A DNA stretch of 64,000 nt from a virus (IMGVR_UViG_3300027887_000463:9371-73370); one strand, 5' to 3'. Shown: positions 6,435-60,223, counted from the stretch's first letter. A program made the numbers and translations. The notes: generated from the letters alone by a model not told the origin.

Positions 6435-6463
6435 TTGATTTTCGTGTATAATCTACGTATAAT
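6435..6463 (+). promoter_or_regulatory. Sigma-70-type promoter TTGATT-N17-TATAAT; -10 ends 5 nt before the ATG of the sigma-factor gene (leaderless transcript predicted)
   Basis: TTGATT 6435-6440, 17-nt spacer, TATAAT 6458-6463; ATG at 6469 with no Shine-Dalgarno; a second TATAAT at 6447-6452. Confidence 0.55.
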
Positions 6464-6468
6464 AGACT

Positions 6469-7182
6469 ATGACTGACAAACAAGAAGAACTGAATCTGTG
6501 GAAGAAGTGGAGAAAAACGGGGGATCCTAGCTATATGAATTCCCTAATCAACTCATTAAACCCCTATCTACAGTCCCATGTAAATAAGTTTTCGGCGGTA
6601 CCAATCCCACGTACCGCTTTAGAGAGTCAAGCAAAGCTATTGGCCTTGAAAGCCCTACAGACATATGATCCAAAGAAGGGTACTCAAATCAATACGCATC
6701 TTGGACATGAACTAAAGCACTTAAATAGATACGTGATTGAGTATCAGAATGTCGGTAAGATACCAGAGAATCGTGGCATAGCTATATCTAAATTTCAAAA
6801 CATTAAGTCAAATTTGACGGAAGATCTCAGTCGAGAACCTACCGTTATAGAACTGGCAGATGCCTTGCAATGGTCCCCTGCCGAAGTCGAGCGGATGCAA
6901 AATGAACTAAGAAGTGATATACTTATCACTCAAGGAAAAGAAGAAGCCTTTTTTGATACCACATACAATCCTTCCGATCGAGACAGGGATATAGTTGAGT
7001 TTGTCTATTATCAGTCCTCCCCTGAAGAAAAGAAAGTCCTAGAATATACATTTGGGATGGGAGGAAATCCCAAATTATCGACTGGAGAAATCGCTATGCG
7101 ATTAAATAAAACTCCAGCCGAAATAGGTAGCATGCGTAAAAGATTAGCGTTAACAATAAAAGACGCGGCAAGTAATTACTAA
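6469..7182 (+). CDS. Phage-encoded sigma-70-family (ECF/sigma-28-like) RNA polymerase sigma factor
   Basis: Region-2-like segment (SQAKLLALKALQTYDPKKGTQINTHL) and C-terminal region-4.2-like HTH (LSTGEIAMRLNKTPAEIGSMRKRLALTIKD); 237 aa. Confidence 0.6.
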   Translation: MTDKQEELNLWKKWRKTGDPSYMNSLINSLNPYLQSHVNKFSAVPIPRTALESQAKLLALKALQTYDPKKGTQINTHLGHELKHLNRYVIEYQNVGKIPENRGIAISKFQNIKSNLTEDLSREPTVIELADALQWSPAEVERMQNELRSDILITQGKEEAFFDTTYNPSDRDRDIVEFVYYQSSPEEKKVLEYTFGMGGNPKLSTGEIAMRLNKTPAEIGSMRKRLALTIKDAASNY

Positions 7183-30451: not shown

Positions 30452-30480
30452 AAGATACCAATTAACCAATACAGGTAACC

Positions 30481-37685: not shown

Positions 37686-37821
37686 ACGTGTGTATTGGTT
37701 AGTGATTTTGACACCCTTAGTATACGAAAAAAATCTGACAAAATCAAGTTTTGGCCCGGAAAAAGTCGATTTGGCAACATTTAATTTCCGATTTTTTTAG
37801 GCCTATTTAGCGCCCTTAAGG

Positions 37822-38780: not shown

Positions 38781-38805
38781 ATAAAAATATTGGTTAAAGA
38801 AACAA

Positions 38806-46313: not shown

Positions 46314-49300
46314 ATGGTAAATAAGCTAGATCCAGGTCTCCAGTCTAAGAACATCCAAGAAGCTATAGCAAATGTGATTAAATCACAGTTTCCTATTCAG
46401 GGTCGATATCAAACCTTGGAGCTTGTTGGGCCCCTAACAATTCAAGATGATTTAGATGATCAAGATTTTCCTGCTCAGCGTGAAGCCAAGCTCAGCGGAA
46501 GATCCTGGCAAGTTCCTGTGTACGGAACTTTCCGCCTCACTGATAATAAAACTGGAAATGTTATTGATGAAGCTAAGGATATAAAGGTCGCCAATATTCC
46601 TAAGCTTACGGATCGTTTCTCCATGCTCATCGAAGGTAATGAATATACTACGATGAATCAATTTCGTCTCAAGCCAGGAATTTATACTCGTAAAAAAGCT
46701 AACGACGAAATGGAGTCTCAATTTAATCTTGCCGTAGGTTATAACTTCAAAATGATGATGGATCCGGCAGATGGTATCTTCTATTTATATATTGGAAACC
46801 AGAAGTTCCACCTGTATACCCTGCTTCGTGCTTTTGGCGCCTCAGAAAACGAGATGATTAAATCCTGGGGCAATGCTCTGTTTGATAAAAACAAAAATGC
46901 TGGCCTCAACGAAGAGGGAAAAGAAATACCTCTGATGTGGGAGAAGTTGAAGAGACAAAAACTTCCATACGAAGAAGCTCTCAATGCTTTAAAGGATTAT
47001 TTCGATAAGACCAGAATTGATGTTGATACCACAGAAATTACCCTTGGTCGTGGAGTAGATCGTGTTACTCCAGATGCATTACTTCTTACTTCATCTAAAC
47101 TCTTACGTGTTCTACGTGGAGACGAGCCAGAAGATGAGCGCGATAGCCTAGTCTTCAAAGATCTCTATACCGTCGATGATCTTGTTCAAAAACATATCGA
47201 GAAGCGTGCTCCGAATATTCAAAAGAATCTTTTAGCCAGAACAGACCATAAGCAATCAATAAGAGAAATCATCTCACCAGATACTTATACCAAAGATATT
47301 AAGTCTTTTTTCACGCAAGGTGACTTAAGTAACCCATCCCCACAGACTAACCCCGTCGAGATGTTGGGCGAGTGGCGGAAGACTACTATCACAGGCACGG
47401 GTGGTATTCAGAGTTCACATGCCATCACCTTCAAAACTCGTGACATTCACCCAACACACTTGGGTTTTGTTGATCCTCTTAATACTCCAGAGTCGGGTAA
47501 AGTAGGTGTAACCCTTCCTCTAGCTATGCATGTTGAGAAACATGGAAAAGATATTAAGACACGATTGGTTACTCCAGAAGGAAAAGATATATTTGCCACA
47601 CCAGTAGAATTCTACAAAATGAAGGTCGGATTTCCAGATCAGCATGTTGAGGGTAAAGCTAAAGGCACCATGATTAAGGCGATGTATCGTGGGCAATCTG
47701 TGGTTCTTCCTGCCAAAGATATTGATGCATATATTCTTGACCCAACAAGTATGTTTGCTTGGACAACTAACCTTGTTCCATTCTTAGGACATAACTCGGG
47801 TAACCGCGCCCTCGTGGCCGCTAAAATGGTAACTCAAAGTGTCCCATTGAAAGCTCCAGAAACTCCTCTGGTAAAAGTTGTTGGACAAACCGGAGAAACG
47901 CTTGATTCAGTATTAGGCACGTTCTTAAAACCTAAGGTTCCTAAAGGATTTGGAACAGCCACTGTAATGAAGATCGATGATGACTACATTCATATAAGAA
48001 ATGAAAAGGGCGATCGTCATAAAGTTGGTTTATACAAAGACTTCCCGCTAAATCAAGAATCTTTTATTAATTCACGAGTTCTAGTTGATATCGGGCAGAA
48101 AGTCAAGGAGGGTGAACCTCTAGCGGATACTAACTTTTCAGACAAGAGTGGAAACTTTGCTCCTGGTGTAAATGTCAATGTTGCATATATGCCTTGGCAT
48201 GGATATAACTACGAGGACGGTATTGTTGTTACAGATTCTCTTTCCAAACGTTTTACATCAACTGTAATGTTGAAAAAGAATCTGCAGGTAGGGAAGGATA
48301 GTATTCTAGACCTAAAGAAATTTGTTTCATATTATCCTAAAGAATTGACGGTTGCCAACATTGAGAAAATGGATGATACAGGAGTAATAAAGGAGGGCGT
48401 TCGTATTGAGCCCGGTGAAACACTTATTGCTCATCTAAGCAAAATGGATCTAACGGATACACAAAAGATCCTAAAAAATATGAATCGTGTATTATCCAAT
48501 CCTTATCGTAATCAATCTCTTACCTGGGATGGAGAAAATCCAGGTGTTGTAACCCACGTTAGAAAAGTAGGAAATACTTATCAAATTCATGTGAAGGAAG
48601 AGCAACCACTCAAGGTTGGGGATAAGCTAGCCGCTCGGTATGGGGATAAAGGTATTGTTACGAAGATCATTTCAGATTCCGAAGCACCCCATACCAAAGA
48701 TGGAAATCGTATAGATATGATGGTTAATATTCATGGTGTAGTAGGCCGTATGAATATGGGGCAGCTACTTGAAGCAGCTGCTGGTCGAATCGCTATGAAG
48801 ACAGGCAAGCCTTTCTTAGTAAAGAACTTTGCTGACCGAGATTATCTATCTGATATTATGGCTGAAATGAAGAAGTTAAAACTTGAACCTAATGAGACGC
48901 TTCTGGATGGAGCAACGGGTAAGCCATTTGAAAAACCAGTCTTCTGGGGCAATAAGCATTATCTAAAGCTGATGCATGTAGTTGATCATAAGTACAAAGC
49001 TCGTGGAATCCCCGGATCTTATGATGCAAATGAGCAACCCGTCCATGGCGAGGTCGGAGGACAATCAGTTGATCCTCTACAGATGTATTCGTATCTTGCG
49101 CACGGTGCACGAGAGAATCTATATGAATTTACCGCGGTGAAAGGTCAGAAGAATGACGAGTATTGGCGTGCGCTACAGCTCGGTCTTCCGCCTCCTCCAC
49201 CCCAAAGAAACTTTGTCTTTGATAAGTTCATTAATTATATCAAGGCAGCTGGGGTTAATGTTGAGAAGAATGGAACTCGGTTTAAACTATTCCCAGCCAC

Positions 49301-52300
49301 CTCAGATGATATGTTAAAATGGTCTGCTGGCGAGCTTACAGATCCTGGTCATATGTTACGTGGAAAAGATCTTAGTGAAATTAAGGGTGGTTTATACGAC
49401 CCGAAATTAACGGGAGGGCTGCGAGGTACTAACTGGACCCACTTCAAACTAGAAGAGCCGATCCCCAATCCATTATATGAAAATGCAGTTAAGTCAATCT
49501 TAGGGCTAAATACACCTGCATTTGAACGTATCATCAATGAAGATGATAAAGATTCAAAGATGAAAGGTAACCAGCGTATAGCCAAAATGCTTTCGGATAT
49601 TGATATAGATGAAGAATTAGCCAAAGCTAAGGACGCCCTAAAGACAGCTGGACCTACACAAGTTAACACTTTGAACAAAAGGATTCGTTTCCTATCAGTG
49701 TTGAAGGAGCGTAATTTACGTCCTGAAAAAGCATATATGATGGAATTGATACCAGTACTTCCTCCAATTTATAGGCCAGTTTATCCATTACCTTCCGGAG
49801 ATACACAGAATTCTCCAATTAATTATCACTATCGTGACGTAGCTGTGTTGAATCAGTCTATAAAAGATATAAAAGCACAAGGTCATTTGATAGATGAGTT
49901 GGAACAGAACAGAAAGAATAGATCTGACTTATACAAATCTGTAAAAGCTTTAATGGGATTAGCAGAGCCCATCACCTTTACTACTCGTCAATATGAAGGA
50001 CTTCTTGGAACTCTTGCCGGAGATTCTCCAAAGCAAGGATTCATTCAGAACAAGTCCTGGTCGAAACGTCAAGATTTATCGGCTCGGTCCACGATCACAG
50101 TGGAACCTTCGCTCGGTATCGATCAAGTTGGATTGCCTGACGTCATGTTGAAAGATCTCTTTAAACCGTTTGTTATGAGAGAAATTGTACGCCAAGGTTA
50201 CAAACCAACTGAAGCCTTAGAACAGATAAAAACCTGGACTCCTGTAGCGGAACAAGCTCTGAATAATGCTATTAAACAGCGGCCCGTTATGCTTAACCGG
50301 GCACCATCTCTTCATAAGCATTCAGTACAGGCATTCTGGCCACAGAGATTTGAAGGACAAAGTATTCGTGTAAGTCCATTGACAGCAAAAGGATTTAACT
50401 TTGACTTTGATGGCGACACCATGTCAGTACACGTTCCTGTGTCTGAAAAAGCTGTGGAAGAAGCTAAAGGCATGCTGCCAACAAAGAATCTCTACAAAGC
50501 CGGCGATCGTCAGCATATGATTAATATTGAACAGGATTACCAGCTTGGTCTTTATTATTTATCACAGCTCGGAGCAGATACTGGAAAACGATTTTCTTCT
50601 ATTAGCAAGGCAATAAAGGAAGTTAAGGATCGTAATACTACCTTTACTTTAGATGGTAAAAAGATGAGTATCGGACAATGGGAAATTAACGACCCACTTC
50701 CTGATGCTTTGAAAGATTATACGCGACTCATGGATTCAAAAGCCGTCAAAGGTTTAGTAGATACATTATTTATGAAATATCCCGGTTATCTTGGAACTGT
50801 TATTGATACCTGGAAGGAGCTCGGAAGAAACTACGCAGTTCAAAGAGGTAGTACCGTGTCCATTACAGATATGGTCGTTGATCGCAGTTACAGGGATAAG
50901 ATCTTAAAAGATTATGAAGCTAAAATTAAGCCTGGTATGGATAAATATGAAGTCTCAAAGATCTATGGTGATGCTAAAGCTGAGATGGAAGAGGCTCAAG
51001 AAAAGCTTCTAAAGGGGAAGAACAACTTTTATGATATGTTACAAGCTGGAAGTACTTCGAAGAAGGGTCAGGTTACACAGATCCTTTCCATGCCGGGCAT
51101 TATGATGGACGTTCACGGAGAGCCAATTCCACATCCTGTAAAGAAATCTTGGTCAGAAGGTCTTGATACATTTGATTATTGGAACCAGTCTTATGGTGCC
51201 CGTAAAGGTGTTGTGGATCGTTCCGTTAATACTCAAGATTCTGGAGCTTTAAATAAAGAACTTCTATTTACTACTAAGAGTTTATTAGTTATTGAAGAAG
51301 ATTGTGGAACTCCAGAGGGTATTATATTAGATACTGATTCCAAAGAAGTTATGGATCGATTTCTTTCAAGTGATGTTCCGGGCGTTGGTAAGAGAAATGA
51401 TCTTGTTACAAATGAGCGTATGTTAAAAGCGAAAACAAAGAAAATAGAAAAACTTCCAGTACGATCATCTCTCACCTGTGAAGCTGAGGGCGGAGTTTGT
51501 CAGAAATGTTATGGCCTTATGGCAAACGGACAACTTGCTCGTATAGGAGAAAATGTAGGAGTTATTGACTCTGAGGCTGTTACTGAACGTTCTACTCAAT
51601 TACAAATGCAGACTTTCCATACTGGGGGTGTTGCAGGCGGAGGGGCAGCAGTAACATTAGGGTTCCCTAGATTGGAAGAGCTCTTGTATGTTCCACAGAA
51701 GATTCGAGACGCAGCGGTTCTTTCGCGAGAAGATGGTATTGTTACTCAAATTACAGAGAATCCAGCAGGAGGAAAAAATCTCTTCATTGGTCGTAGTGAG
51801 TACTATATTCCAAGAGAGAGACGTCTAGACGTTTCCGTCGGCTCTCGAGTAAAACGTGGTGATCGTTTAACAGATGGTTCCATTAAGCCACAGGAATTGT
51901 CGGAATTAAAAGAGCATCTTACAGCCCAGCAATATATAGCAGATGAAATCAATAAGATTTATGAGAATAAATTTGCAAGGAAAACTTTTGAAACCGTTTT
52001 ACGTGGTGTAGCAAATAATGCCGAAATAACAAATATTCCTGAAGAAGTAGAAGCAAGTGCTAATTTTATGCGGGGCGATACAGTACCGATAACTCGTGTA
52101 AAGAAATTAAATAGAGAGCTACTTGCTGAAGGAAAACCACAGATAGAATATAAGCCATTCTTTAAATCTATCTCTGTACTCCCATTACATAGTGACGATT
52201 GGCTAAGTAGATTAACAACAAACAGATTAAAACAAACTATCCAAGAGGCAGCTTCTATGGGTATGGAGAGCGATGTTAAGGGCACAGACCCGATGTCTGC

Positions 52301-52361
52301 TTATCTATATGGACTTGATTTTGGAAAAGATGTTGATCCAACAAAGAAGAAATTCTATTAA
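46314..52361 (+). CDS. Fused beta-beta' multisubunit RNA polymerase catalytic subunit (RpoB-RpoC-like single polypeptide, about 2015 aa)
   Basis: RpoB-like segments (FLGHNSGNRALVAAKMVTQSVPL; YMPWHGYNYEDGIVV; AARYGDKGIVTKI...RMNMGQLLE; GGQSVDPLQMYSYLAHGA) followed by an RpoC-like catalytic region (NRAPSLHKHSVQAFWP...FNFDFDGDTMSVHVPVS = NADFDGD motif). ATG 46314 with RBS preferred over the upstream TTG used in the ORF track. Confidence 0.8.
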   Translation: MVNKLDPGLQSKNIQEAIANVIKSQFPIQGRYQTLELVGPLTIQDDLDDQDFPAQREAKLSGRSWQVPVYGTFRLTDNKTGNVIDEAKDIKVANIPKLTDRFSMLIEGNEYTTMNQFRLKPGIYTRKKANDEMESQFNLAVGYNFKMMMDPADGIFYLYIGNQKFHLYTLLRAFGASENEMIKSWGNALFDKNKNAGLNEEGKEIPLMWEKLKRQKLPYEEALNALKDYFDKTRIDVDTTEITLGRGVDRVTPDALLLTSSKLLRVLRGDEPEDERDSLVFKDLYTVDDLVQKHIEKRAPNIQKNLLARTDHKQSIREIISPDTYTKDIKSFFTQGDLSNPSPQTNPVEMLGEWRKTTITGTGGIQSSHAITFKTRDIHPTHLGFVDPLNTPESGKVGVTLPLAMHVEKHGKDIKTRLVTPEGKDIFATPVEFYKMKVGFPDQHVEGKAKGTMIKAMYRGQSVVLPAKDIDAYILDPTSMFAWTTNLVPFLGHNSGNRALVAAKMVTQSVPLKAPETPLVKVVGQTGETLDSVLGTFLKPKVPKGFGTATVMKIDDDYIHIRNEKGDRHKVGLYKDFPLNQESFINSRVLVDIGQKVKEGEPLADTNFSDKSGNFAPGVNVNVAYMPWHGYNYEDGIVVTDSLSKRFTSTVMLKKNLQVGKDSILDLKKFVSYYPKELTVANIEKMDDTGVIKEGVRIEPGETLIAHLSKMDLTDTQKILKNMNRVLSNPYRNQSLTWDGENPGVVTHVRKVGNTYQIHVKEEQPLKVGDKLAARYGDKGIVTKIISDSEAPHTKDGNRIDMMVNIHGVVGRMNMGQLLEAAAGRIAMKTGKPFLVKNFADRDYLSDIMAEMKKLKLEPNETLLDGATGKPFEKPVFWGNKHYLKLMHVVDHKYKARGIPGSYDANEQPVHGEVGGQSVDPLQMYSYLAHGARENLYEFTAVKGQKNDEYWRALQLGLPPPPPQRNFVFDKFINYIKAAGVNVEKNGTRFKLFPATSDDMLKWSAGELTDPGHMLRGKDLSEIKGGLYDPKLTGGLRGTNWTHFKLEEPIPNPLYENAVKSILGLNTPAFERIINEDDKDSKMKGNQRIAKMLSDIDIDEELAKAKDALKTAGPTQVNTLNKRIRFLSVLKERNLRPEKAYMMELIPVLPPIYRPVYPLPSGDTQNSPINYHYRDVAVLNQSIKDIKAQGHLIDELEQNRKNRSDLYKSVKALMGLAEPITFTTRQYEGLLGTLAGDSPKQGFIQNKSWSKRQDLSARSTITVEPSLGIDQVGLPDVMLKDLFKPFVMREIVRQGYKPTEALEQIKTWTPVAEQALNNAIKQRPVMLNRAPSLHKHSVQAFWPQRFEGQSIRVSPLTAKGFNFDFDGDTMSVHVPVSEKAVEEAKGMLPTKNLYKAGDRQHMINIEQDYQLGLYYLSQLGADTGKRFSSISKAIKEVKDRNTTFTLDGKKMSIGQWEINDPLPDALKDYTRLMDSKAVKGLVDTLFMKYPGYLGTVIDTWKELGRNYAVQRGSTVSITDMVVDRSYRDKILKDYEAKIKPGMDKYEVSKIYGDAKAEMEEAQEKLLKGKNNFYDMLQAGSTSKKGQVTQILSMPGIMMDVHGEPIPHPVKKSWSEGLDTFDYWNQSYGARKGVVDRSVNTQDSGALNKELLFTTKSLLVIEEDCGTPEGIILDTDSKEVMDRFLSSDVPGVGKRNDLVTNERMLKAKTKKIEKLPVRSSLTCEAEGGVCQKCYGLMANGQLARIGENVGVIDSEAVTERSTQLQMQTFHTGGVAGGGAAVTLGFPRLEELLYVPQKIRDAAVLSREDGIVTQITENPAGGKNLFIGRSEYYIPRERRLDVSVGSRVKRGDRLTDGSIKPQELSELKEHLTAQQYIADEINKIYENKFARKTFETVLRGVANNAEITNIPEEVEASANFMRGDTVPITRVKKLNRELLAEGKPQIEYKPFFKSISVLPLHSDDWLSRLTTNRLKQTIQEAASMGMESDVKGTDPMSAYLYGLDFGKDVDPTKKKFY

Positions 52362-52373
52362 GGTAAAAAAATA

Positions 52374-52398
52374 AAAGGGGAGTTTCGGCTCCCCTTTT
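52374..52398. terminator. Bidirectional rho-independent terminator
   Basis: AAAAAAATAAAA-GGGGAG-TTTCGG-CTCCCC-TTTT between convergent genes. Confidence 0.7.
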
Positions 52399-52404
52399 AC
52401 TTTA

Positions 52405-52770
52405 CTACTCCAGCGGCTCGCCCATCCCAAATGATCCTACCCACAGCCTTTCTCCTCCACCAAAAGACATCTCGAAGCAATCCGAGTGTACCTTCTTTAG
52501 AAGAGCCGACATCTCCCAGCCGTATACAAGAATAAGATGCTTCACGTGCTTCATCGCATCTGCACTTGTTTTACCCGCAATTACATCTTCTACGGTGACT
52601 GTGAAATAGTCTGCCTGGGCTGCTTCATTGGGAATCGTAGCAAACGCCTCAAGATCAGGATTCGTAATTAGAATCTGACCTTTGGATGGAGAAACTGTAT
52701 AAATCTCTCCATAAGGCGTTCTACTATACATGCCCAGCGGCTGATTATTGAAATCAACTAAATAGATCAT
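52405..52770 (-). CDS. Hypothetical protein (121 aa)
   Basis: ORF; ATGA overlap with the upstream gene. Confidence 0.45.
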   Translation of the reverse strand: MIYLVDFNNQPLGMYSRTPYGEIYTVSPSKGQILITNPDLEAFATIPNEAAQADYFTVTVEDVIAGKTSADAMKHVKHLILVYGWEMSALLKKVHSDCFEMSFGGGERLWVGSFGMGEPLE

Positions 52771-53791: not shown

Positions 53792-55960
53792 TTATTTGTT
53801 CACAACGACAACCTTTCCGTCGACCAGTTGAACTTCAAATGACCTTGCATCTGGATTCTCCAGAAGAAGATCTGCCATCTTTGATTCAACTTCCTTTTCA
53901 ATCAATCGACGCATTGGTCGAGCACCATATTCCGTAGAGTAGCCCTTTTCCAAGAACCAGTCTTCGGCTTCTGGTGTAAAGCTCATCGTAAACCGTTCGT
54001 TGATATCGTTTACCATAAGCTTCATGATCTGTCTCATACTGTCCTTATCGAGACGATTAAAGGTAACAATCTCGTCAAGGCGGTTGAGAAACTCCGGCTT
54101 GAAAAAGCTCTTCAACGCCGCCTTAAGATTCTTCTTCATATCATCATCTGCTGATGTTTCAGAGAATCCAAGGTTACGTTTTCCGGCGCTCTCAACACCG
54201 ATGTTTGACGTGATAATGATAATAGTATTTTTGAAACTGACAACCCTCCCTTGAGAATCAGTCAGAATACCATCATCAAAAATCTGAAGAAGCACATTGA
54301 ATACATCCGGATGCGCTTTCTCTATCTCATCAAACAATACAACTGAATACGGCTTCTTACGAACTTTCTCTGTAAGCTTTCCACCGCTATCATCGTATCC
54401 GATGTATCCCGGAGGAGCTCCGATAAGCGAAGAGATGGTGAACCGATCAAAGAATTCACTCATATCCAAACGAATCATTGCCTGTTCCGAATCAAACAGA
54501 TATCTAGCCAACTGTCTGGCCATCTCTGTTTTTCCAACCCCAGTAGGTCCAATGAAGAGGAAGGTGCTTGGGCGTTTATCGCTTTTGACACCGGTGCGTT
54601 TCCGTTTAATTGAGTTGGATACAGCTTGAATAGCATCTGGCTGTCCAACCAATCTTCCAGAAAGATCGGTATCAATGTGCTTTAACTTTTCCCGTTCCGA
54701 CTTATTGAGATTGGTGATAGGAACACCGGTTGTCTTCGAAACTACTCCTCGAATGATATCATTGTCGACCTGGACTGTGCCAGCGAGTTTTGCGACTGCC
54801 GCAGCTTCATCCAAAACGTCAATGGCTTTATCAGGAAGGAAACGATCCTGAATATAGCGTTCGGTGAGTTCAATAATGGTTGGAATAGCTTCCTGTGGAA
54901 TTTCCACCCCGTGATAAAGTTCATAGACATATTTGATTTGGCCGAGAATCTGTGCGGTTTCCTCCAGGGTTGGTTGCTCAATCATCACCTTCTGAAATCT
55001 CCGCTCCAACGCTCCATCCTTCTCGACATGCTTGCGAAATTCATTGGCAGTAGTTGCGCCAATGCATTTAATGTATCCACGTGATAGTGCCGGCTTGATG
55101 ATGTTTGCAGCATCACCAGTTCCCTCAGTACCTCCCGTACCCATAAGGGAATGCATCTCATCGATAAACAGAATGATATCAGGATTCTTCATCAGTTCCT
55201 TGATAATCATCTGCATCCTCTGCTCGAATTGTCCCCTGTACTGCGTTCCCGCAATAATGGAGTTGATGTCAAGTGAAAGGATTCTTTTGTTGAGAAGCAT
55301 TTTGGGAACATTACCCGCAGCGACGCGCATTGCCAGACCTTCGACAATAGCGGTCTTTCCCACGCCTGGCTCACCGATCAACGCAGGGTTGTTCTTCTTC
55401 CTGCGTGCTAGGATCTCGATGACACGTGAGATTTCGGATTCGCGTCCGATGACCGGATCTAACTTATTCTCCTGAGCCAGAATCGTCAGATCCATCGAAA
55501 AAGCATTTAGTGCCGGAGTGTTTTGTGAACTTGTCCGATCACTTGATACCTTTTTCTTTGGTTCTCCGACTTCAGTGTAGCCAACTTCATTGAGCATCTT
55601 GGACGCTACACTGTCTGGTGTACGATAGAGACTGTGAACTAAAGCATCTGCTTCTATTGTTCCGGTTATCGATATGAACTTGGCGAAGTTCAGAATATAA
55701 CGCATCGAATTCGAAACTTTCGGAAGAGGGTTCGTTACTGCAATATCCCTCTGTATTACACGGAATCGATCCGACAAGAGTGTACGAAGTTTACCAATGT
55801 TTGCCCCATTCTTGTTTAAAAGCGTAAGGCCTTCGTTATCACCTTGCTCCACGATTGCAAAAAGTAAGACTTCACTGGAAATTGTATCTTGGTTAAGCTC
55901 CGTCGCTTTCTTTCGAGCTAATCCAAAGATTTCCTCTGTCTTTGTTGAATACTGATTCAT
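53792..55960 (-). CDS. ClpA/ClpC-like two-ring AAA+ unfoldase (about 722 aa from MNQYSTK)
   Basis: N-terminal Clp_N repeat, D1 Walker A GEPGVGKTAIVEGLA, D2 Walker A GPTGVGKTEMARQLA, DRFLPDKAIDVLDEA; RBS AAAGGAG-N7-ATG at 55960. Confidence 0.85.
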   Translation of the reverse strand: MNQYSTKTEEIFGLARKKATELNQDTISSEVLLFAIVEQGDNEGLTLLNKNGANIGKLRTLLSDRFRVIQRDIAVTNPLPKVSNSMRYILNFAKFISITGTIEADALVHSLYRTPDSVASKMLNEVGYTEVGEPKKKVSSDRTSSQNTPALNAFSMDLTILAQENKLDPVIGRESEISRVIEILARRKKNNPALIGEPGVGKTAIVEGLAMRVAAGNVPKMLLNKRILSLDINSIIAGTQYRGQFEQRMQMIIKELMKNPDIILFIDEMHSLMGTGGTEGTGDAANIIKPALSRGYIKCIGATTANEFRKHVEKDGALERRFQKVMIEQPTLEETAQILGQIKYVYELYHGVEIPQEAIPTIIELTERYIQDRFLPDKAIDVLDEAAAVAKLAGTVQVDNDIIRGVVSKTTGVPITNLNKSEREKLKHIDTDLSGRLVGQPDAIQAVSNSIKRKRTGVKSDKRPSTFLFIGPTGVGKTEMARQLARYLFDSEQAMIRLDMSEFFDRFTISSLIGAPPGYIGYDDSGGKLTEKVRKKPYSVVLFDEIEKAHPDVFNVLLQIFDDGILTDSQGRVVSFKNTIIIITSNIGVESAGKRNLGFSETSADDDMKKNLKAALKSFFKPEFLNRLDEIVTFNRLDKDSMRQIMKLMVNDINERFTMSFTPEAEDWFLEKGYSTEYGARPMRRLIEKEVESKMADLLLENPDARSFEVQLVDGKVVVVNK

Positions 55961-56374
55961 AGTACTCCTTTTGTGAATAAAATTTGGAAGGCTGCGATCC
56001 GCAATCCTTGATAACATACCGTCCGATTATTAGGCCATCGGGGCCTATTATCATTCCTACTATTCCATACTGCTACCTGATCACGAAACGTAACCCTGGA
56101 ATGGGAAATGCATTCCGCGATTGGGATGACAACCTTCCCTTGAAAGGGATAACCTGGCCAGGACTAGAGCTTCTCCACAGCCCCTTTGCTAGGGTAGGGC
56201 CGTGTGTCTGAAAAGTACAGATACCCCTCCCCAGGTCCTTTGCCTGGGCGTTAGGGCTCATCAAAAGTCGAAGCGACTTTCTATAGCTTGATAGCTTCTT
56301 CAAACCAAATTGGCCGAAGAATCCTCATGCGCCCACCTCTACTCGTAGCCAAGCTCCCTAATTACTTCTTATCC
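55961..56374 (-). promoter_or_regulatory. About 410-nt untranslated, GC-elevated, hairpin-rich region upstream of the clpA-like gene (candidate structured leader or sRNA)
   Basis: No convincing ORF (two overlapping antisense 75-aa ORFs only); multiple G/C hairpins such as CCCAGG-TCCTTTGC-CTGGG and GCCC-TTTGCTAGGGTA-GGGC. Confidence 0.3.
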
Positions 56375-57226
56375 TCAAGCTTCTTCAGAATCTTCATCCG
56401 CTCTTTTGTTGCGCCCGAGTCTTTTCCCAGTTTTCCGTCCAGACGATTCAGTCGGTCTGAAAGGGTCAACTTCTCGTACAATTCCTGGCGGACCTTCGCT
56501 TCTTCCTGCTTCTGTTTCCGGCTTTTCATATGATATTACCTCGACTTGATTTCCGTCTAGTTTAACAACTTGTTTTGTGAATTGAAGGCAGTCGATATCC
56601 CAATTGGAACCTTTTTGTTTTATCTTTGTGACCGGTGTATGGCCAAAGATCTGGGTTAATCCTTCCACGGGATTGAAGTCAACAGCAAAGTCAGACCAAA
56701 ATATACCTGCGTTTTGATCCACTCCCCCACGACTCATTCCAATGTTATATACTAACCCATCATCTACAGATCTCCAGGATTCTTGTAAAAAGAATTCAAT
56801 CAAATCAATGAAATCTTCTCTCTCATAGAGATCGGGGGTAGTTTCGAATGCCTCTCGAAGAAGCTGTGAATTAAGCCCTGCGTGTGTGATGAGTACCTTA
56901 TTTTCCTTATCCAGAATAAAAGGTTTCATCAGTTTCCACATACGGCTTTTTAATGCTATGATTTTTGCGTCGAAACTTGATGCATATCCCGAACACCGCA
57001 TACGCCTCATGAGATACGATAGCTCATGATTACCAAAAACACATTCAGTGGTTCCTCGTTCAATATCATTTAGAACCAACTCTAGAAGCTTGAACTGTTC
57101 TGTTCGTGAAAAGTAAAAGGAATCGAGCAGATCTCCAGTTAAAATCAGCTTCTCTTTTGTTGAACTCTTTACTTCGTGATAGAAGTTGATCTCACCATGG
57201 AGATCTCCGATTACGATTGCTTTCAT
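56375..57226 (-). CDS. Ser/Thr protein phosphatase, PPP family (lambda-phosphatase-like) with charged C-terminal tail
   Basis: GDLHG, GDLLD, GNHE metallophosphoesterase motifs; K/R/E-rich C-terminal 40 aa. Confidence 0.75.
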   Translation of the reverse strand: MKAIVIGDLHGEINFYHEVKSSTKEKLILTGDLLDSFYFSRTEQFKLLELVLNDIERGTTECVFGNHELSYLMRRMRCSGYASSFDAKIIALKSRMWKLMKPFILDKENKVLITHAGLNSQLLREAFETTPDLYEREDFIDLIEFFLQESWRSVDDGLVYNIGMSRGGVDQNAGIFWSDFAVDFNPVEGLTQIFGHTPVTKIKQKGSNWDIDCLQFTKQVVKLDGNQVEVISYEKPETEAGRSEGPPGIVREVDPFRPTESSGRKTGKRLGRNKRADEDSEEA

Positions 57227-57711
57227 CGATTAAAATAATCCTCGTTGTGCCACTCTGGTGGTTTTCTGTTTGTCCATCTTTTGTCTATGTGCTTTTTTCC
57301 ATAAAAATAATACTTTCTATAAGCCCAAATGGTGTTGCCAAATTTATATTCATCTGGCATACATTTTGGAGGAGAGGAAAATCCTATAATCGGTATATCT
57401 TTTGGAAGGCGCTGAAGAAGCCACATAGGCTCGCTTGTTTTATGATGCTTACCATATCTGTGGTTGTATTCGGATAATAGCCACTGCCCATACTCCAGCA
57501 ACCACTGGTAATTTTGGCCAGAAGTTCGCGCCCATATGGCACACGGATGATTTTTATGTGTCGGTTGGTACATCCCCCGTTTCCACGAACCCAGTTCAGA
57601 ATGTGCAGTGCTGAGCAGCTGTGCAGTCTCTAAAATCATCTTTACTACATGCTTATCACACAGCATTGCTGCACATGTTTTAGGATCTCGTGCAAGGTAG
57701 AAAATGTTCAT
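57223..57711 (-). CDS. Hypothetical protein (162 aa); weak resemblance to DenV-type pyrimidine-dimer glycosylase N-terminus
   Basis: MNIFYLARD...LCDKHVVKMILE versus the T4 endoV [23 protein letters not shown] pattern, and a C-terminal RKPPEW; not secure. Confidence 0.2.
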   Translation of the reverse strand: MNIFYLARDPKTCAAMLCDKHVVKMILETAQLLSTAHSELGSWKRGMYQPTHKNHPCAIWARTSGQNYQWLLEYGQWLLSEYNHRYGKHHKTSEPMWLLQRLPKDIPIIGFSSPPKCMPDEYKFGNTIWAYRKYYFYGKKHIDKRWTNRKPPEWHNEDYFNR

Positions 57712-58044: not shown

Positions 58045-58066
58045 AAGGGCACGGTTAGGTGCCCTT
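58045..58066 (-). terminator. Hairpin plus T-run overlapping the stop codon of the RNA-repair gene (possible partial terminator/attenuator)
   Basis: Minus strand AAGGGCAC-CUAACC-GUGCCCUU-UUAUUU; stop codon lies in the loop. Confidence 0.35.
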
Positions 58067-60223
58067 CTCCTTGTAATACATATTTCTCAATGTGATGATA
58101 TCTCGTGATAGCTCTTCTTCAGTTCTGGTTTTGAGCCAGGCATAGAAGTAGTTGGCTTCGGGCGTAACCAATCCCGAGAGATTCACCTGTCGTCTTGCAC
58201 GAACAGCATCCTTCACTACACGCATATGTTTCCAGAAGTTGTAGTAAGGGAGCTTAAGCTTCATCATAAAGCCATTGGAATCCTCAAAGACAAATCCCTC
58301 GATATCCGAGGTAGTTGCCGTTTCACATTCCTTATAGAATTGAAGAAGCTCTTCCTTCGAGTTCAGAGTCTTATACAATTGCTTCGAGCGATGTGGCATA
58401 TTCAGTGAATGGGCAAATGCCAGCATCTCCTGATATGGCAACTTCTCGTAGTCAAGTGTTCTCCGCACTGCATCCAGAAGAACTAATCCCTGTCTGTCGG
58501 GATATGCAATGATATGAGGATCGGTATCTTGATCAACTACTTCGAAGACAAGAGTGACGTTGTGTCCCTTGAGAATTGCTTTGAGATAATCCGGATCTAC
58601 GTTTGTGGTTAATGCCCACACACGCTTGAAGATGTCCGGATAGATTCCCTCAACAGAACTCTTGGAAAGGAAGAGAACCTGATCGGAAGCAGTATCATAA
58701 CCGACCATACCCAGGAATCCATTATACTTCTCGTACACATGGACAGGATATTGAAGGTTAACCGTTTCAATCTTAGTCTCATCTCTTTCGTTCACATTGA
58801 AAAACTTATTATATGAACGAGCCACAATTTCATTTGTCACCGTATTGACGAACAGTCCTCTGGCTTTTACTGTCATTCCATCCCAAATCTTCTTGTAGAA
58901 CGCACCACGGTTGAAGTTAAACGAGGAGATATCTCCGAACTTGCGCTCATTGATGTGTCTGCTCTTCCTTAAATCCTCCACGAACGAGGAAGGACCGAGA
59001 GTGGTTTCCACTTTTATATTTTTTGGACGAAATACAGTATTCGGAATCTCCCATGTCTTGATCTCCAAAGAATCACGATAGAGAGTAACAGCCCGAAGAT
59101 TTCCTCCGAACTCAATGTTACCCTGCAGATTATAATACTTTGGGTTGATCTTTATAGGCGATTCCGTAACGTTTCTATGGCCAGATATCTGGATGGCATC
59201 CGGCGGAGAATTCTTCTCCCACGATTCAGCAACCTCCAGCATATCTTCATAGCGTCCCACACCTTTGATAAATTGTTCGGTAGCAATTGTGATGAGGTCT
59301 TCAGGGAGCTTAGAGATGCCTCCGTGGGTTACCAGAACGAGCTGATTTCCCAAACGGAAATATGCAACCTGAGCAAACTTCCTACACAACTGCCGTACGG
59401 ATCCCTTATCCAAAGCTGCGGACTCGAGTTCTCTTTTGGTTTGGAAAAGGAATTCATTGGAACGAATCTTTTCCTCTTCCTGGTTGGCCCAGTATCTCAA
59501 CCACCGCTCGTGATTCCCCTCCAGAAGAAGTATATTAGGCTTTTCATAATTCTCGATAAGCCAACGTACCACCTCGGTATTCTGAATCCCACGATCGATA
59601 AAATCACCAACAAAGATGTAATAGTGATTTTCGTGATAGCCAACTGCATCGAACCACACTTTCAGCGGTTCATAACATCCGTGAATATCTCCGATAATGT
59701 GCACCTGTTCATATTCAAATGCAAGCGGTGCATAATCAAAGACGCCCATATAGTCAGCCGGCTTGACAACCTGGACATAACCAGGAACCGGTTGACTCTT
59801 TAGTCGAGCTTCGATATTATCGAGCACAAATTCCGGAACCCACTTATATTCCGGACGGGTCTTATTCTGAAGTTTGCATTGTTCCAGAGGAACATCGGAG
59901 AAGTCGATACAATAGATACGGTATCGATACTCTCCTGCCAACTTCTTATACTTGGCAAAATCGCTGGCCTTGGAGTGAGTAGCATCAATGAACACCAGTT
60001 CTCCGCGTTCCATGCGAGTTTCCAACATTTCGAATAGAAGTCCCCAAACCTTTCGGTCATTCTCCGGGCTAATCGCGTACACTCCCTTAGGAGTAAGTAC
60101 CGGCGCCTGGAGTTGGAGACGAATGTCATCAGCGCACAATGTGTAAGGGCGCAGGCCTTCCTGTTCGAGCCAGGTAGACTTTCCGCATCCGACATTACCG
60201 CGGAGAAGATAGAGGTGTCTCAT
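58055..60223 (-). CDS. Trifunctional RNA-repair enzyme: polynucleotide kinase, metallophosphoesterase-type phosphatase and ligase-like nucleotidyltransferase (bacterial Pnkp-like), 722 aa
   Basis: N-terminal P-loop GNVGCGKST; central calcineurin-like motifs HIIGDIHGC, VGDFIDRG, GNHE; C-terminal nucleotidyltransferase motif I EKYNGFLGM (KxNG). Confidence 0.7.
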   Translation of the reverse strand: MRHLYLLRGNVGCGKSTWLEQEGLRPYTLCADDIRLQLQAPVLTPKGVYAISPENDRKVWGLLFEMLETRMERGELVFIDATHSKASDFAKYKKLAGEYRYRIYCIDFSDVPLEQCKLQNKTRPEYKWVPEFVLDNIEARLKSQPVPGYVQVVKPADYMGVFDYAPLAFEYEQVHIIGDIHGCYEPLKVWFDAVGYHENHYYIFVGDFIDRGIQNTEVVRWLIENYEKPNILLLEGNHERWLRYWANQEEEKIRSNEFLFQTKRELESAALDKGSVRQLCRKFAQVAYFRLGNQLVLVTHGGISKLPEDLITIATEQFIKGVGRYEDMLEVAESWEKNSPPDAIQISGHRNVTESPIKINPKYYNLQGNIEFGGNLRAVTLYRDSLEIKTWEIPNTVFRPKNIKVETTLGPSSFVEDLRKSRHINERKFGDISSFNFNRGAFYKKIWDGMTVKARGLFVNTVTNEIVARSYNKFFNVNERDETKIETVNLQYPVHVYEKYNGFLGMVGYDTASDQVLFLSKSSVEGIYPDIFKRVWALTTNVDPDYLKAILKGHNVTLVFEVVDQDTDPHIIAYPDRQGLVLLDAVRRTLDYEKLPYQEMLAFAHSLNMPHRSKQLYKTLNSKEELLQFYKECETATTSDIEGFVFEDSNGFMMKLKLPYYNFWKHMRVVKDAVRARRQVNLSGLVTPEANYFYAWLKTRTEEELSRDIITLRNMYYKEKGT

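What the first reader, a model, noticed from the sequence alone, without database searches (positions are those of the whole stretch)
46314..52361. Compact single-chain beta-beta' multisubunit RNA polymerase (about 2015 aa) encoded by the phage
The collinear RpoB-like and RpoC-like catalytic motifs, including the NADFDGD-type FNFDFDGDTM loop, sit in one polypeptide. It is about 700 aa shorter than cellular beta plus beta' combined. The phage also encodes its own sigma factor (6469-7182) and no alpha or omega subunit is visible in the window. This suggests a minimal virus-specific transcription machine, possibly sigma-dependent, that is distinct from the split non-virion RNAP subunits of phiKZ-like phages and from crAss-like single-chain two-DPBB enzymes. 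The gene is driven by a host-type sigma-70 promoter, so it is probably an early or middle gene that then takes over late transcription.
Basis: partly seen in the sequence, partly recalled or inferred. Interest (0 to 1): 0.75.

Follow-up and report, generated by a model that had tools for sequence, protein, structure and literature searches.

The report
Phage single-chain RNA polymerase with sigma
This uncultured tailed phage encodes both large subunits of a bacterial-type RNA polymerase as one 2015-residue protein and also has its own sigma factor; this compact two-gene design is conserved in hundreds of phage lineages but has barely been described.

Summary
Window 46314-52361 (+) is one intact ORF of 2015 aa. 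Residues 1-987 match bacterial beta and residues 988-2015 match bacterial beta'. The DxDGD catalytic triad, bridge helix, trigger loop, flap-tip helix and clamp helices are all present.

The fusion is not an artefact. The identical protein occurs on three independent contigs. The junction has the same length in all 78 aligned relatives. A 230-aa probe across the junction finds 421 protein clusters (E<=1e-30), and every one of the best 150 spans the junction.

The protein is short because it lacks the E. coli lineage-specific insertions and the beta' zinc-binding domain.

The 237-aa protein at 6469-7182 is a divergent full-length sigma-70-family factor. Its subfamily occurs on the same contigs and in the same cultured phages as the polymerase. 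No alpha homologue was detected.

The closest cultured relatives are Salmonella phage Arash and three Vibrio phages (about 30% identity). They keep the beta-beta' fusion but split beta' further downstream. In Arash, polymerase and sigma were detected in virion preparations.

Best reading: a virus-specific, alpha-less, two-component holoenzyme. When it acts is unresolved: early expression from host-type promoters, delivery in the virion, or both.

It is a new variant of a known kind.

The parts
46314..52361 (+). Gene for the single-chain beta-beta' RNA polymerase (2015 aa).
   Evidence: One ORF. Pfam Rpb2 and Rpb1 domains are in collinear order. Bacterial beta' chains in the PDB match at E 1e-109. 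The identical protein occurs on 3 contigs.
46314..49274 (+). Beta-like module (residues 1-987). It holds the lobe/protrusion remnants, fork, beta DPBB and flap with tip helix. It lacks the E. coli insertions SI1, SI2 and the stretch of about residues 1126-1203.
   Evidence: phmmer against Salmonella RpoB: q22-182 = b53-221, q252-736 = b421-918, q757-831 = b1051-1125, q855-984 = b1204-1338.
49263..49295 (+). Beta/beta' junction (residues about 984-994, ...VEKNG|TRFKLFP...). The last strand of beta and the first strand of beta' are joined by a two-residue turn with no linker.
   Evidence: The segment of residues 985-1030 is 45-48 aa long in all 78 aligned members, including Arash and D69. The AlphaFold2 model has strand 981-986, a turn, then strand 989-994 at pLDDT about 82-89. 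The best 150 hits to a probe across the junction all span it.
49275..52361 (+). Beta'-like module (residues 988-2015). It holds the clamp with clamp helices, catalytic DPBB, second zinc site, bridge helix and trigger loop. The N-terminal zinc-binding domain and SI3 are absent.
   Evidence: phmmer against Salmonella RpoC: q1077-1779 = b'174-946 and q1774-1991 = b'1128-1347. A Cys-free GGLFD..TGG..G..W.H segment replaces the zinc ribbon in all members. The model matches the bacterial beta' clamp.
50397..50417 (+). Catalytic loop NFDFDGD (residues 1362-1368).
   Evidence: DxDGD is invariant in 78 members, while the second position varies (A/F/M/L/V/Y/Q/S).
46266..46294 (+). Sigma-70-type promoter-like element TTGACT-N17-TATCAT, followed by AAGGTG (Shine-Dalgarno) and the ATG.
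   Evidence: Best match in the scan, 10 of 12. It belongs to a class of 4 intergenic sites in the window. A similar element lies upstream of the gene in 20 of 80 related loci, against 1.4% of control windows.
52368..52403 (.). GC-rich hairpin flanked by A and T runs between the convergent RNAP gene and the 52405-52770(-) gene. It is terminator-like on both strands.
   Evidence: Terminator scan finds 15 pairs followed by a T run.
6469..7182 (+). Gene for the phage sigma-70-family factor (237 aa, domains sigma2-sigma3-sigma4). It is the probable partner of the polymerase.
   Evidence: Pfam Sigma70_r3. PDB SigA/RpoS matches at E about 1e-4. AlphaFold2 pLDDT is 84.7, and Foldseek matches SigD, SigB, sigmaS, sigma32 and WhiG over the full length at probability 1.0. 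It co-occurs with the RNAP.
6435..6463 (+). Promoter-like element TTGATT-N17-TATAAT directly upstream of the sigma gene. It is of the same class as the one before the RNAP gene.
   Evidence: Pattern scan: 4 of 9 window matches fall in the 4% of the window that is intergenic.

Best explanation
The gene encodes the complete catalytic core of a bacterial-type multisubunit RNA polymerase as one polypeptide. The C-terminal strand of beta runs through a two-residue turn straight into the N-terminal strand of beta', so the two halves of the clamp and both double-psi beta-barrels lie in one chain.

Inferred: the covalent link replaces the assembly role that the alpha dimer plays in cells, so the enzyme needs neither alpha nor omega.

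Inferred from co-occurrence and from retained docking sites: the core pairs with the phage's own 237-aa sigma-70-family factor (6469-7182). This would give a two-protein holoenzyme that transcribes phage genes independently of the host core enzyme.

The RNAP and sigma genes each carry a sigma-70-type -35/-10 element. The phage sigma has non-aromatic residues at the four positions that melt TATAAT in sigma-70. The simplest reading is therefore that host RNAP makes the first copies and the phage holoenzyme then reads a different, still undefined promoter class. Evidence from the cultured relative Arash suggests the enzyme and sigma may also be packaged in the virion and delivered with the DNA.

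Shown: the gene, the fusion, its conservation, the catalytic and sigma-docking elements, the sigma fold and the co-occurrence.

Inferred: activity, the sigma partnership, independence from alpha, and timing.
For: - Intact ORF with collinear RNAP domains.
- Strong similarity to bacterial beta' and beta.
- Invariant DxDGD triad. Inteins sit at four highly conserved sites, three of them catalytic-centre elements, in many relatives.
- The junction has a fixed length in 78 members and is predicted as a beta-hairpin.
- 421 clusters at E<=1e-30 carry the junction segment, and the best 150 all span it.
- 587 IMG/VR loci encode a relative; 72 of the best 80 hold one ORF of at least 1993 aa, and three more are interrupted only by in-frame TGA.
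- Only one member was found among representative genomes of 185,579 prokaryotic species, on a 204-kb contig.
- The sigma fold covers sigma2 to sigma4.
- In 50,697 phage records, sigma homologues occur in only 5: the four phages that carry this RNAP, plus one 9.5-kb faecal-sample fragment too short to tell.
- Sigma and RNAP lie on the same named IMG/VR contigs in 6 cases, across 35-85% RNAP identity. Nine further pairs share an identical longest-contig length.
- The flap-tip helix and clamp helices are retained.
- No RpoA homologue was found in the window or in Arash or the Vibrio phages.
- Arash virion mass spectrometry detected beta, beta' and sigma.
Against: - No biochemical data exist for any member.
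- Absence of alpha rests on sequence searches only, and only 64 kb of this genome was available. A divergent alpha-like fold or use of host alpha cannot be excluded.
- Phage sigma factors commonly redirect host RNAP, so co-occurrence does not prove partnership.
- The Arash virion preparation also contained ribonucleotide reductases and RNA ligases, so virion association may reflect carry-over. The authors say so themselves.
- Promoter assignment rests on four sites in the window.
- Pfam does not detect sigma regions 2 and 4, and NCBIfam scores for the sigma are far below cut-off.
Confidence: 0.6

Rival explanations
1. The polymerase and sigma are packaged in the virion and injected with the DNA. 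Early transcription is then done by the phage enzyme, as with the phiKZ virion RNAP or the N4 vRNAP. In this reading the sigma-70-like promoters upstream of the two genes are read by the phage holoenzyme itself. This rival concerns timing only and is compatible with the core explanation.
For: In Arash, Gp206 (beta plus the N-terminal part of beta') gave the most spectra of all virion proteins; Gp216 and sigma Gp10 were also detected. The sigma gene lies inside the structural-gene block, next to baseplate genes, in the window, in Arash and in D69. In Arash and D69 the RNAP gene follows the portal gene; the window has portal, a 10.6-kb opposite-strand block, then the RNAP gene. Arash and D69 have only one RNAP gene set. 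A single chain suits passage through a tail (inference).
Against: The Arash preparation also held plainly non-structural enzymes. Spectral counts scale with protein size. The phage sigma lacks the aromatic -10-melting residues expected for reading TATAAT-like elements. No data exist for the window phage itself.
Confidence: 0.35
2. The sigma factor does not serve the phage polymerase. It redirects the host core enzyme, as in RNAP-less jumbo phages and in T4 or SPO1. The single-chain enzyme would then initiate with another, unidentified factor or without one, as phiKZ and AR9 non-virion RNAPs use gp68 and gp226.
For: Many phages without an RNAP encode sigma factors for the host enzyme, and known phage multisubunit RNAPs have no sigma (PMC7824862; PMC13282480). 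The loss of the beta' zinc-binding domain removes an element that lies near sigma and the promoter spacer in bacterial holoenzymes (its role is from memory).
Against: This sigma subfamily is found only where the polymerase is found, or on fragments too short to tell. The two principal sigma-docking elements of the core, the beta' clamp helices and the beta flap-tip helix, are retained. Sigma region 2.2 aligns well with SigA. The hosts of the family appear diverse (TGA-recoded members, a member binned with Bacteroidales, Salmonella and Vibrio phages), whereas the sigma tracks the phage enzyme.
Confidence: 0.2
3. The fused beta-beta' recruits host alpha dimer and omega, forming a hybrid enzyme, as natural cellular beta-beta' fusions still do.
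For: Helicobacter and Wolbachia fuse beta and beta' yet keep alpha (established knowledge, from memory). No phage alpha was detected, so any alpha used would have to come from the host.
Against: phiKZ and AR9 enzymes work without alpha. The family spans phages whose hosts appear very different, which argues against dependence on a host-specific alpha interface (inference). Not tested directly.
Confidence: 0.15
4. The fusion is an artefact (frameshift, mis-assembly or sequencing error joining two genes), or the contig is bacterial rather than viral.
For: None was found.
Against: The same 2015-aa protein occurs on three contigs from different data sets. More than 70 full-length single-ORF relatives at 33-85% identity were found. 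The junction length is invariant. The window also holds a portal, a baseplate protein and a 3241-aa fibre, with no ribosomal or other cellular core genes. Only one member was found among representative genomes of 185,579 prokaryotic species.
Confidence: 0.01

Closest known systems
RNA polymerase of Salmonella phage Arash (Gp206 + Gp216, with sigma Gp10) and of Vibrio phages D69, D148 and D181
   Same: They are orthologous: 29-31% identity over 96-97% of the query for the Vibrio phages. They have the same beta-beta' junction of the same length and the same Cys-free replacement of the zinc-binding domain. They have an orthologous sigma at a syntenic position near the start of the structural block. 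Each has a single RNAP gene set.
   Different: In these cultured phages beta' is cut after window residue 1447/1448, giving a 1525-aa beta + beta'-N protein and a 606-aa beta'-C protein separated by 0.6-4.8 kb. This is within about 20 residues of the cyanobacterial rpoC1/rpoC2 split. The window enzyme is uninterrupted. In the records, Arash Gp206 is annotated simply as 'beta subunit' and the Vibrio genes as hypothetical.
mReC: multisubunit-RNAP-encoding Caudovirales (Weinheimer and Aylward 2020, PMC7481178)
   Same: They are tailed phages from metagenomes, with contigs up to about 300 kb, whose beta and beta' are readily aligned with cellular enzymes. One mReC size class (beta about 1000 aa, beta' about 900 aa) has nearly the same total size as the window protein.
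   Different: In the roughly 50 supplement rows read, beta and beta' are separate proteins. That paper's filter required NADxDGD, which the window protein (NFDFDGD) fails. Six metagenomes that yielded fused-enzyme contigs here are not in its RNAP table. The paper does not mention a fusion or a sigma. No tree was built, so the phylogenetic relation between the two groups is untested.
Natural cellular beta-beta' fusions (Helicobacter type, NCBIfam PRK09603; Wolbachia type, PRK14844)
   Same: The order is the same, beta then beta' in one chain. PRK09603 is the best-scoring NCBIfam model (E 1e-161).
   Different: The cellular fusions are about 2840-2890 residues, with the full set of domains and the zinc ribbon, and they work with alpha, omega and host sigma. 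The window protein scores 540 bits against a cut-off of 5372, and 471 against 4632. It is therefore not a member, and the fusion probably arose independently.
phiKZ / AR9 jumbo-phage virion and non-virion RNAPs
   Same: They are phage-encoded two-barrel multisubunit-type enzymes without alpha or omega. They come as a virion-delivered version and a version made during infection.
   Different: Those enzymes are split into 4-5 polypeptides, are very divergent from cellular RNAP, have no sigma homologue detectable by sequence and use gp68 or gp226. The window enzyme is one chain, is much closer to bacterial RNAP, and comes with a recognisable sigma-70-family protein. PHROG families for phiKZ-type subunits match it only weakly.
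crAss-like phage and YonO-type single-chain two-barrel RNAPs
   Same: Both barrels lie in one polypeptide. The crAss-like enzyme is virion-delivered.
   Different: Those proteins show no detectable similarity to COG0085 or COG0086 profiles (PMC7481178). The window protein hits six Pfam RNAP domains, four of them above Pfam's gathering score, and matches bacterial beta' at E 1e-109.

Membership tests
Two-barrel multisubunit RNA polymerase catalytic core (beta/Rpb2 + beta'/Rpb1) | Beta-type double-psi beta-barrel region (Pfam RNA_pol_Rpb2_6). | tested here: met
   PF00562 matches at 1e-59, 203 bits against a cut-off of 23.4, residues 580-912.
Two-barrel multisubunit RNA polymerase catalytic core (beta/Rpb2 + beta'/Rpb1) | Beta'-type barrel with the Mg-binding DxDGD aspartate triad. 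| tested here: met
   PF00623 matches at 6e-27. NFDFDGD lies at residues 1362-1368, and the three aspartates are invariant in 78 relatives.
Two-barrel multisubunit RNA polymerase catalytic core (beta/Rpb2 + beta'/Rpb1) | Bridge helix and trigger loop module (Rpb1 domain 5). | tested here: met
   PF04998 matches at 3e-24. The segment aligns to E. coli-numbered beta' residues 767-946 and 1128-1347, with SI3 absent.
Two-barrel multisubunit RNA polymerase catalytic core (beta/Rpb2 + beta'/Rpb1) | Template-dependent RNA synthesis. | not testable with these tools
   This needs biochemistry.
Bacterial RpoB / RpoC equivalogs (NCBIfam TIGR02013, PRK00405, TIGR02386) | Score at or above the curated equivalog cut-off. 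| tested here: not met
   rpoC_TIGR scores 511 against 963.5, PRK00405 scores 370 against 896, and TIGR02013 scores 336 against 801. Bacterial models score far above archaeal ones (139 and 91 bits).
Bacterial RpoC | N-terminal zinc-binding domain (four Cys, E. coli C70-C88). | tested here: not met
   A Cys-free GGLFD..TGG..G..W.H segment takes its place in all 78 members.
Cellular fused RpoBC (NCBIfam PRK09603, PRK14844) | Beta and beta' in one chain, in that order. | tested here: met
Cellular fused RpoBC (NCBIfam PRK09603, PRK14844) | Score at or above the curated cut-off. | tested here: not met
   540 against 5372, and 471 against 4632.
mReC phage RNAP lineage (PMC7481178) | Caudovirales context with beta and beta' alignable to cellular profiles. 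| tested here: met
   The window holds a portal, Baseplate_J and a tail fibre, and the gene has RNAP domains.
mReC phage RNAP lineage (PMC7481178) | Separate beta and beta' proteins of at least 800 aa each, with NADxDGD in beta' (the paper's operational criteria). | tested here: not met
   The window has one protein, with NFDFDGD.
mReC phage RNAP lineage (PMC7481178) | Placement inside the mReC clade in a beta/beta' phylogeny. | not tested
phiKZ/AR9-type phage RNAPs | Beta and beta' each split into two or more polypeptides, with no sigma homologue. | tested here: not met
   The window has a single chain and a sigma-70-family gene.
Sigma-70 family (for the 6469-7182 protein) | Domain sigma3 (region 3). 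| tested here: met
   PF04539 scores 32.6 bits against a cut-off of 25.3.
Sigma-70 family (for the 6469-7182 protein) | Domains sigma2 and sigma4. | tested here: inconclusive
   Pfam does not detect them. However, phmmer aligns residues 15-212 to RpoS 92-304, and the AlphaFold2 model aligns over 229-290 columns to whole sigma factors at probability 1.0.
Sigma-70 family (for the 6469-7182 protein) | Aromatic -10-melting residues of region 2.3 (sigma-70 Y425, Y430, W433, W434). | tested here: not met
   The aligned residues are T, H, H and E, within 'NTHLGHELKH'. The sigma-70 numbering is from memory.
Sigma-70 family (for the 6469-7182 protein) | Binding to an RNAP core and promoter-specific initiation. 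| not testable with these tools
   This needs biochemistry or prediction of the complex.

The most novel reading that the evidence does not exclude
A large and, but for one contig in a bacterial genome bin, virus-only clade of tailed phages carries a self-contained bacterial-type holoenzyme made of just two proteins. The clade holds at least 400 protein clusters at 50% identity and includes members that read TGA as a sense codon. One protein is a single-chain beta-beta' core that needs no alpha or omega. The other is a dedicated sigma whose -10-reading residues differ from all characterised sigma-70-family groups. The enzyme reads its own promoter class and may be delivered in the virion. This would be the smallest natural sigma-dependent multisubunit-type RNA polymerase. 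It would also contradict the current view in reviews that phage multisubunit RNAPs work without sigma factors.
Probability: 0.45. Interest if true: 0.8.

Novelty: new variant of a known kind. Interest (0 to 1): 0.66.

Why it matters
Reviews of phage transcription state that phage multisubunit RNA polymerases are split into many polypeptides and have no sigma, and that phages with sigma factors lack a polymerase (PMC7824862, PMC13282480). This family combines both features in the opposite arrangement: one chain for the core and a recognisable sigma.

If the two proteins are sufficient, they would be:
- a natural minimal model for bacterial-type initiation, with no alpha, omega, zinc ribbon or lineage insertions;
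- an attractive orthogonal two-gene transcription system;
- a test of whether covalent linkage of beta to beta' can replace the alpha assembly platform.

The family is abundant in viromes, with 587 IMG/VR loci and 421 or more clusters. It has cultured members on Salmonella and Vibrio, so the questions can be tested directly. It also bears on the debate over whether phage RNAPs derive from cells or predate them. That is because it is an easily alignable, virus-specific lineage that the 2020 survey's selection criteria would probably have excluded.

Tried and rejected
- **Frameshift or assembly artefact:** rejected.
- **Bacterial contig or cellular rpoBC:** rejected by the phage context and the NCBIfam cut-offs. 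Only one family member was found among representative prokaryotic genomes. All other hits there are ordinary adjacent rpoB-rpoC genes at 32% identity or less.
- **Alpha subunit:** phmmer of E. coli RpoA against the six-frame window (best E 0.3) and tblastn against 50,697 phage records gave no hit in the window, Arash, D69, D148 or D181. This excludes a close homologue only.
- **RNA genes:** no tRNA or tmRNA genes and no Rfam families were found anywhere in the window, including the 253-nt intergenic stretch upstream of the gene.
- **Literature:** eight full-text searches found no description of a fused beta-beta' with sigma in phages beyond the Arash genome paper and the mReC paper. This is absence from the searchable library, not proof of novelty.
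- **Membership in mReC:** could not be shown. Six sample identifiers were not in that paper's RNAP table, and no phylogeny was possible.
- **Rhizobium phage RHph_Y65:** its beta' hit was looked at as a possible unfused relative. It is a lone 1127-aa beta'-like gene at 26% identity and was not informative.
- **Reverse transcriptase upstream:** it was first suspected to belong to a diversity-generating retroelement. No template/variable repeat pair exists. It is a retron-type enzyme instead.
- **Phage-specific promoter motif:** the window has only about 2.6 kb of intergenic DNA. Only the sigma-70-like class (4 sites) and a TAACCAATA element (3 sites) emerged.

Full report
**1. The observation**

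Window 46314-52361 (+) is a single ORF of 2015 codons. The identical protein (P0001) is on record from three contigs in independent data sets.

Pfam places Rpb2 domains 3 and 6 in the first half and Rpb1 domains 1, 2, 4 and 5 in the second half (Rpb1 domain 3 only at E 0.024), all in cellular order. Against solved structures the best matches are bacterial beta' chains (B. subtilis 6wvj_D, E 1.3e-109), and the 60 best listed are all bacterial. NCBIfam bacterial models score 3-5 times higher than archaeal ones. Every curated equivalog cut-off is missed by about a factor of two or more. The protein is therefore bacterial-type but not an orthologue of any cellular RpoB, RpoC or RpoBC.

**2. Anatomy**

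phmmer against Salmonella RpoB and RpoC (E. coli numbering) gives four beta blocks and two beta' blocks:

| Window residues | Cellular residues |
|---|---|
| 22-182 | beta 53-221 |
| 252-736 | beta 421-918 |
| 757-831 | beta 1051-1125 |
| 855-984 | beta 1204-1338 |
| 1077-1779 | beta' 174-946 |
| 1774-1991 | beta' 1128-1347 |

The gaps coincide with the E. coli lineage-specific insertions: beta SI1 (about 225-343), beta SI2 (about 938-1040), a stretch around 1126-1203, and beta' SI3 (943-1130). The names and boundaries of these insertions are from memory of the RNAP literature.

The elements retained are:
- the beta flap-tip helix (LTDTQKILKNM against LTPEEKLLRAIF);
- the beta' clamp helices;
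- the second zinc site (C...C..C..C around residues 1664-1732);
- the bridge helix and trigger loop.

The N-terminal zinc-binding domain of beta' is replaced by a Cys-free GGLFD..TGG..G..W.H segment in every family member examined.

So 'about 700 aa shorter' is true against E. coli (2749 aa). The gap is only about 380 aa against the smallest bacterial enzymes.

**3. The fusion**

Beta ends at ...FVFDKFINYIKAAGVNVEKNG (equivalent to the E. coli C-terminus ...SLGINIELEDE). It is followed at once by TRFKLFPATSDDMLKWSAGEL (equivalent to E. coli beta' residues about 16-38). The junction is N986-G987|T988-R989.

- In a MAFFT alignment of 76 full-length metagenomic relatives plus Arash and D69, residues 985-1030 span 45-48 aa in all 78 sequences.
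- An AlphaFold2 model of residues 901-1330 (12-sequence alignment, mean pLDDT 70.8) gives helix 967-978, strand 981-986, a two-residue turn and strand 989-994, at pLDDT about 82-89. This is a beta-hairpin across the junction. The model matches the N-terminal clamp of bacterial beta' at probability 1.0.
- A 230-aa probe centred on the junction, scored against 1.84 billion representative proteins, finds 992 clusters at E<=1e-10 and 421 at E<=1e-30. All of the best 150 match across the junction in a single stretch.
- In IMG/VR, 587 loci encode a relative. Of the best 80, 72 contain one stop-to-stop ORF of at least 1993 aa. Three more (L011, L014, L035) are interrupted only by in-frame TGA codons.
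- Among one representative genome for each of 185,579 prokaryotic species, only one family member appears. It lies on a 204-kb contig binned with a Bacteroidales MAG and is probably a phage.

The fusion is therefore old, fixed and, on present evidence, virus-specific.

**4. Signs of function**

The DxDGD triad is invariant, while the residue after N varies (A/F/M/L/V/Y/Q/S); the window has F.

About a third of the listed relatives carry one to three inteins, giving proteins of up to about 3700 aa. The insertions cluster at four sites:
- residue about 394 (beta DPLNTPES motif);
- residues about 775-807 (beta GDK...G.KG motif);
- residue about 1368 (directly after DFDGD);
- residues about 1761-1770 (trigger loop).

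Inteins characteristically persist in the most constrained sites of essential enzymes (established knowledge). This argues that the single chain is the working protein.

**5. The sigma factor**

The 237-aa product of 6469-7182 hits only Sigma70_r3 in Pfam. phmmer aligns residues 15-212 to RpoS and 53-155 to SigA. PHROGs call it a sigma factor.

An AlphaFold2 model built on 46 homologues (pLDDT 84.7) aligns over its whole length with SigD, SigB, sigmaS, sigma32, WhiG and SigA. It is a divergent sigma2-sigma3-sigma4 protein resembling group 3. Its best NCBIfam model is FliA/WhiG at 34 bits against a cut-off of 326.

At the positions aligned to sigma-70 Y425, Y430, W433 and W434 it has T, H, H and E. 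T76 and H77 are invariant in the subfamily.

Co-occurrence with the polymerase:
- Among 50,697 phage records its homologues occur in five. Four are Arash and Vibrio phages D69, D148 and D181, which are the four best RNAP hits; the fifth is a 9.5-kb faecal-sample fragment.
- Six IMG/VR contigs carry both genes by name, at RNAP identities of 35-85%.
- Nine further pairs share an identical longest-contig length.
- In the window, Arash and D69 the sigma gene lies at a comparable place near the start of the structural block.

**6. Alpha and other subunits**

No RpoA-like sequence was found in the window or in the complete genomes of Arash and the three Vibrio phages. The Pfam and PHROG scans covered the larger window ORFs and showed no other polymerase subunit or second RNAP set. 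Arash and D69 also have one set only.

These are sequence-level negatives. A divergent alpha-like fold, or use of host alpha, remains possible.

**7. Promoters and timing**

TTGACT-N17-TATCAT lies at 46266-46294. It is followed by a Shine-Dalgarno sequence and the ATG.

The pattern TTGAYW-N16-18-TA[T/G]HHT occurs nine times in the window. Four of these fall in the 4% of the window that is intergenic. All four have a 17-nt, T-rich spacer ending in CG or AG, and all are correctly oriented. They lie before the sigma gene, the RNAP gene and the genes starting at 30481 and 37685(-).

A looser form of the pattern lies within 200 nt upstream of the RNAP gene in 20 of 80 IMG/VR loci, including most of those with at least 45% identity. 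It occurs in only 1.4% of control windows inside the gene.

The element is real, but which holoenzyme reads it cannot be decided here.

Against that, the Arash virion proteome listed Gp206 as the most-detected protein, with Gp216 and sigma Gp10 also present. The same preparation contained ribonucleotide reductases and RNA ligases, and the authors note possible carry-over (PMC10585845).

I consider both routes open.

**8. Comparison with known systems**

- **Cultured relatives.** Arash and the Vibrio phages keep the fusion but split beta' after window residue 1447/1448. This is close to the cyanobacterial rpoC1/rpoC2 boundary.
- **mReC phages.** In the supplement rows read, beta and beta' are separate. 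There are two size classes, one of nearly the same total size as the window protein. That paper's NADxDGD filter would exclude the window protein, and its layout of separate beta and beta' columns may explain why fused genes are not listed. It mentions neither a fusion nor a sigma.
- **Cellular fusions.** The Helicobacter and Wolbachia fusions are about 850 aa longer, and the curated cut-offs exclude membership.
- **phiKZ/AR9 and crAss-like/YonO enzymes.** These differ as set out under Closest known systems.
- **Reviews.** Reviews up to 2026 describe phage multisubunit RNAPs as lacking sigma.
- **Literature search.** None of the eight searches found a description of this architecture.

**9. 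Verdict**

The timing claim remains open.

The finding is a new variant of a known kind rather than categorically new. Phage multisubunit RNAPs, beta-beta' fusions and phage sigma factors are each known, and orthologues already sit, poorly annotated, in GenBank.

What is new is the combination and its scale:
- a fixed single-chain bacterial-type core;
- a co-inherited dedicated sigma;
- no detectable alpha;
- hundreds of lineages, with cultured representatives available for experiments.

Noticed in passing
window 40479-41709 (- strand): The phage carries a retron-like unit. The 294-aa reverse transcriptase (40479-41363) reaches the NCBIfam retron St85 cut-off (236.2 against 235 bits), and its best PADLOC hits are retron RTs at 3e-73. 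The 346-nt non-coding stretch directly upstream on the same strand folds at -144.7 kcal/mol against -102.2 +/- 4.7 for shuffles (z -9.1). That stretch is bracketed by 18-nt inverted repeats (41372-41389 / 41685-41702), like the a1/a2 arms of an msr-msd RNA. No Rfam family matched, and there is no template/variable repeat pair, so it is not a diversity-generating retroelement. An RVT_1 gene lies at the same place, just upstream of the RNAP gene, in the 46%-identical relative L004.
   Followed up: partly
L011, L014, L035 (IMG/VR relatives of the RNAP gene): The RNAP reading frame is interrupted only by TGA (11, 5 and 5 in-frame codons) and by no TAA or TAG. These family members therefore appear to read TGA as a sense codon (code 4/25-like).
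   Followed up: partly
family members P0022-P0115 and others (relatives of window 46314-52361): One to three inteins per protein (LAGLIDADG, Hom_end and Intein_splicing domains) are inserted at four recurrent sites: residue about 394, about 775-807, directly after DFDGD (about 1368), and in the trigger loop (about 1761-1770). Proteins reach about 3700 aa. The window copy has no intein.
   Followed up: partly
window 30463-30471 (+), 37693-37701 (-), 38788-38796 (-): The exact 9-mer TAACCAATA occurs four times in the window (about 0.5 expected). Three copies lie 8-13 nt upstream of start codons that have weak or no Shine-Dalgarno sequences. Two of these lie downstream of a sigma-70-like promoter. 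It could be a translation signal or a second promoter element.
   Followed up: partly
window 60223-60690 (-): The phage encodes a translation initiation factor IF3 homologue (IF3_N 8e-19 and IF3_C 7e-21).
   Followed up: no
window 53792-56017 (-): A 741-aa ClpB/ClpA-like double AAA+ protein (Clp_N, AAA, AAA_2, ClpB_D2-small) lies two genes downstream of the RNAP gene on the opposite strand.
   Followed up: no
window 42663-45380 (-): A MoxR-type AAA+ ATPase (bpMoxR 1e-46) and a VWA-domain protein form a gene pair. They are followed by a 227-aa protein with CxxC...CxxC motifs (45377-46060) directly upstream of, and divergent from, the RNAP gene.
   Followed up: no
window 58055-60223 (-) and 57223-57711 (-): A 722-aa protein fuses a kinase, a phosphoesterase and a T4 Rnl1-type RNA ligase, which suggests RNA repair. 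A pyrimidine-dimer DNA glycosylase homologue lies next to it.
   Followed up: no
window 17566-27291 (+): A 3241-aa fibre-like protein has several internal direct repeats (70-152 nt, 69-78% identical) and a C-terminal Peptidase_S74 intramolecular chaperone domain.
   Followed up: no
L004 16771-18138; L002 19097-20329: In the relative L004 a SNF2-family helicase and PhoH follow the RNAP gene. In Arash a virion-detected 'DNA helicase' (Gp217) directly follows the beta'-C gene. This may be a RapA-like partner of the polymerase. No such gene lies next to the RNAP gene in the window.
   Followed up: no
window 293-35675 and most other ORFs: Most of the larger window proteins scanned have no PHROG or Pfam match. 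Only the portal (33687-35675), Baseplate_J (9441-12404) and the fibre are recognisable among the structural genes. The phage is therefore far from characterised lineages.
   Followed up: partly
window 46094-46111: A GC-rich hairpin followed by a T run (read on the minus strand) lies in the divergent intergenic region between the 45377-46060(-) gene and the RNAP gene. It overlaps a TTGACC box. Its role is unknown.
   Followed up: no
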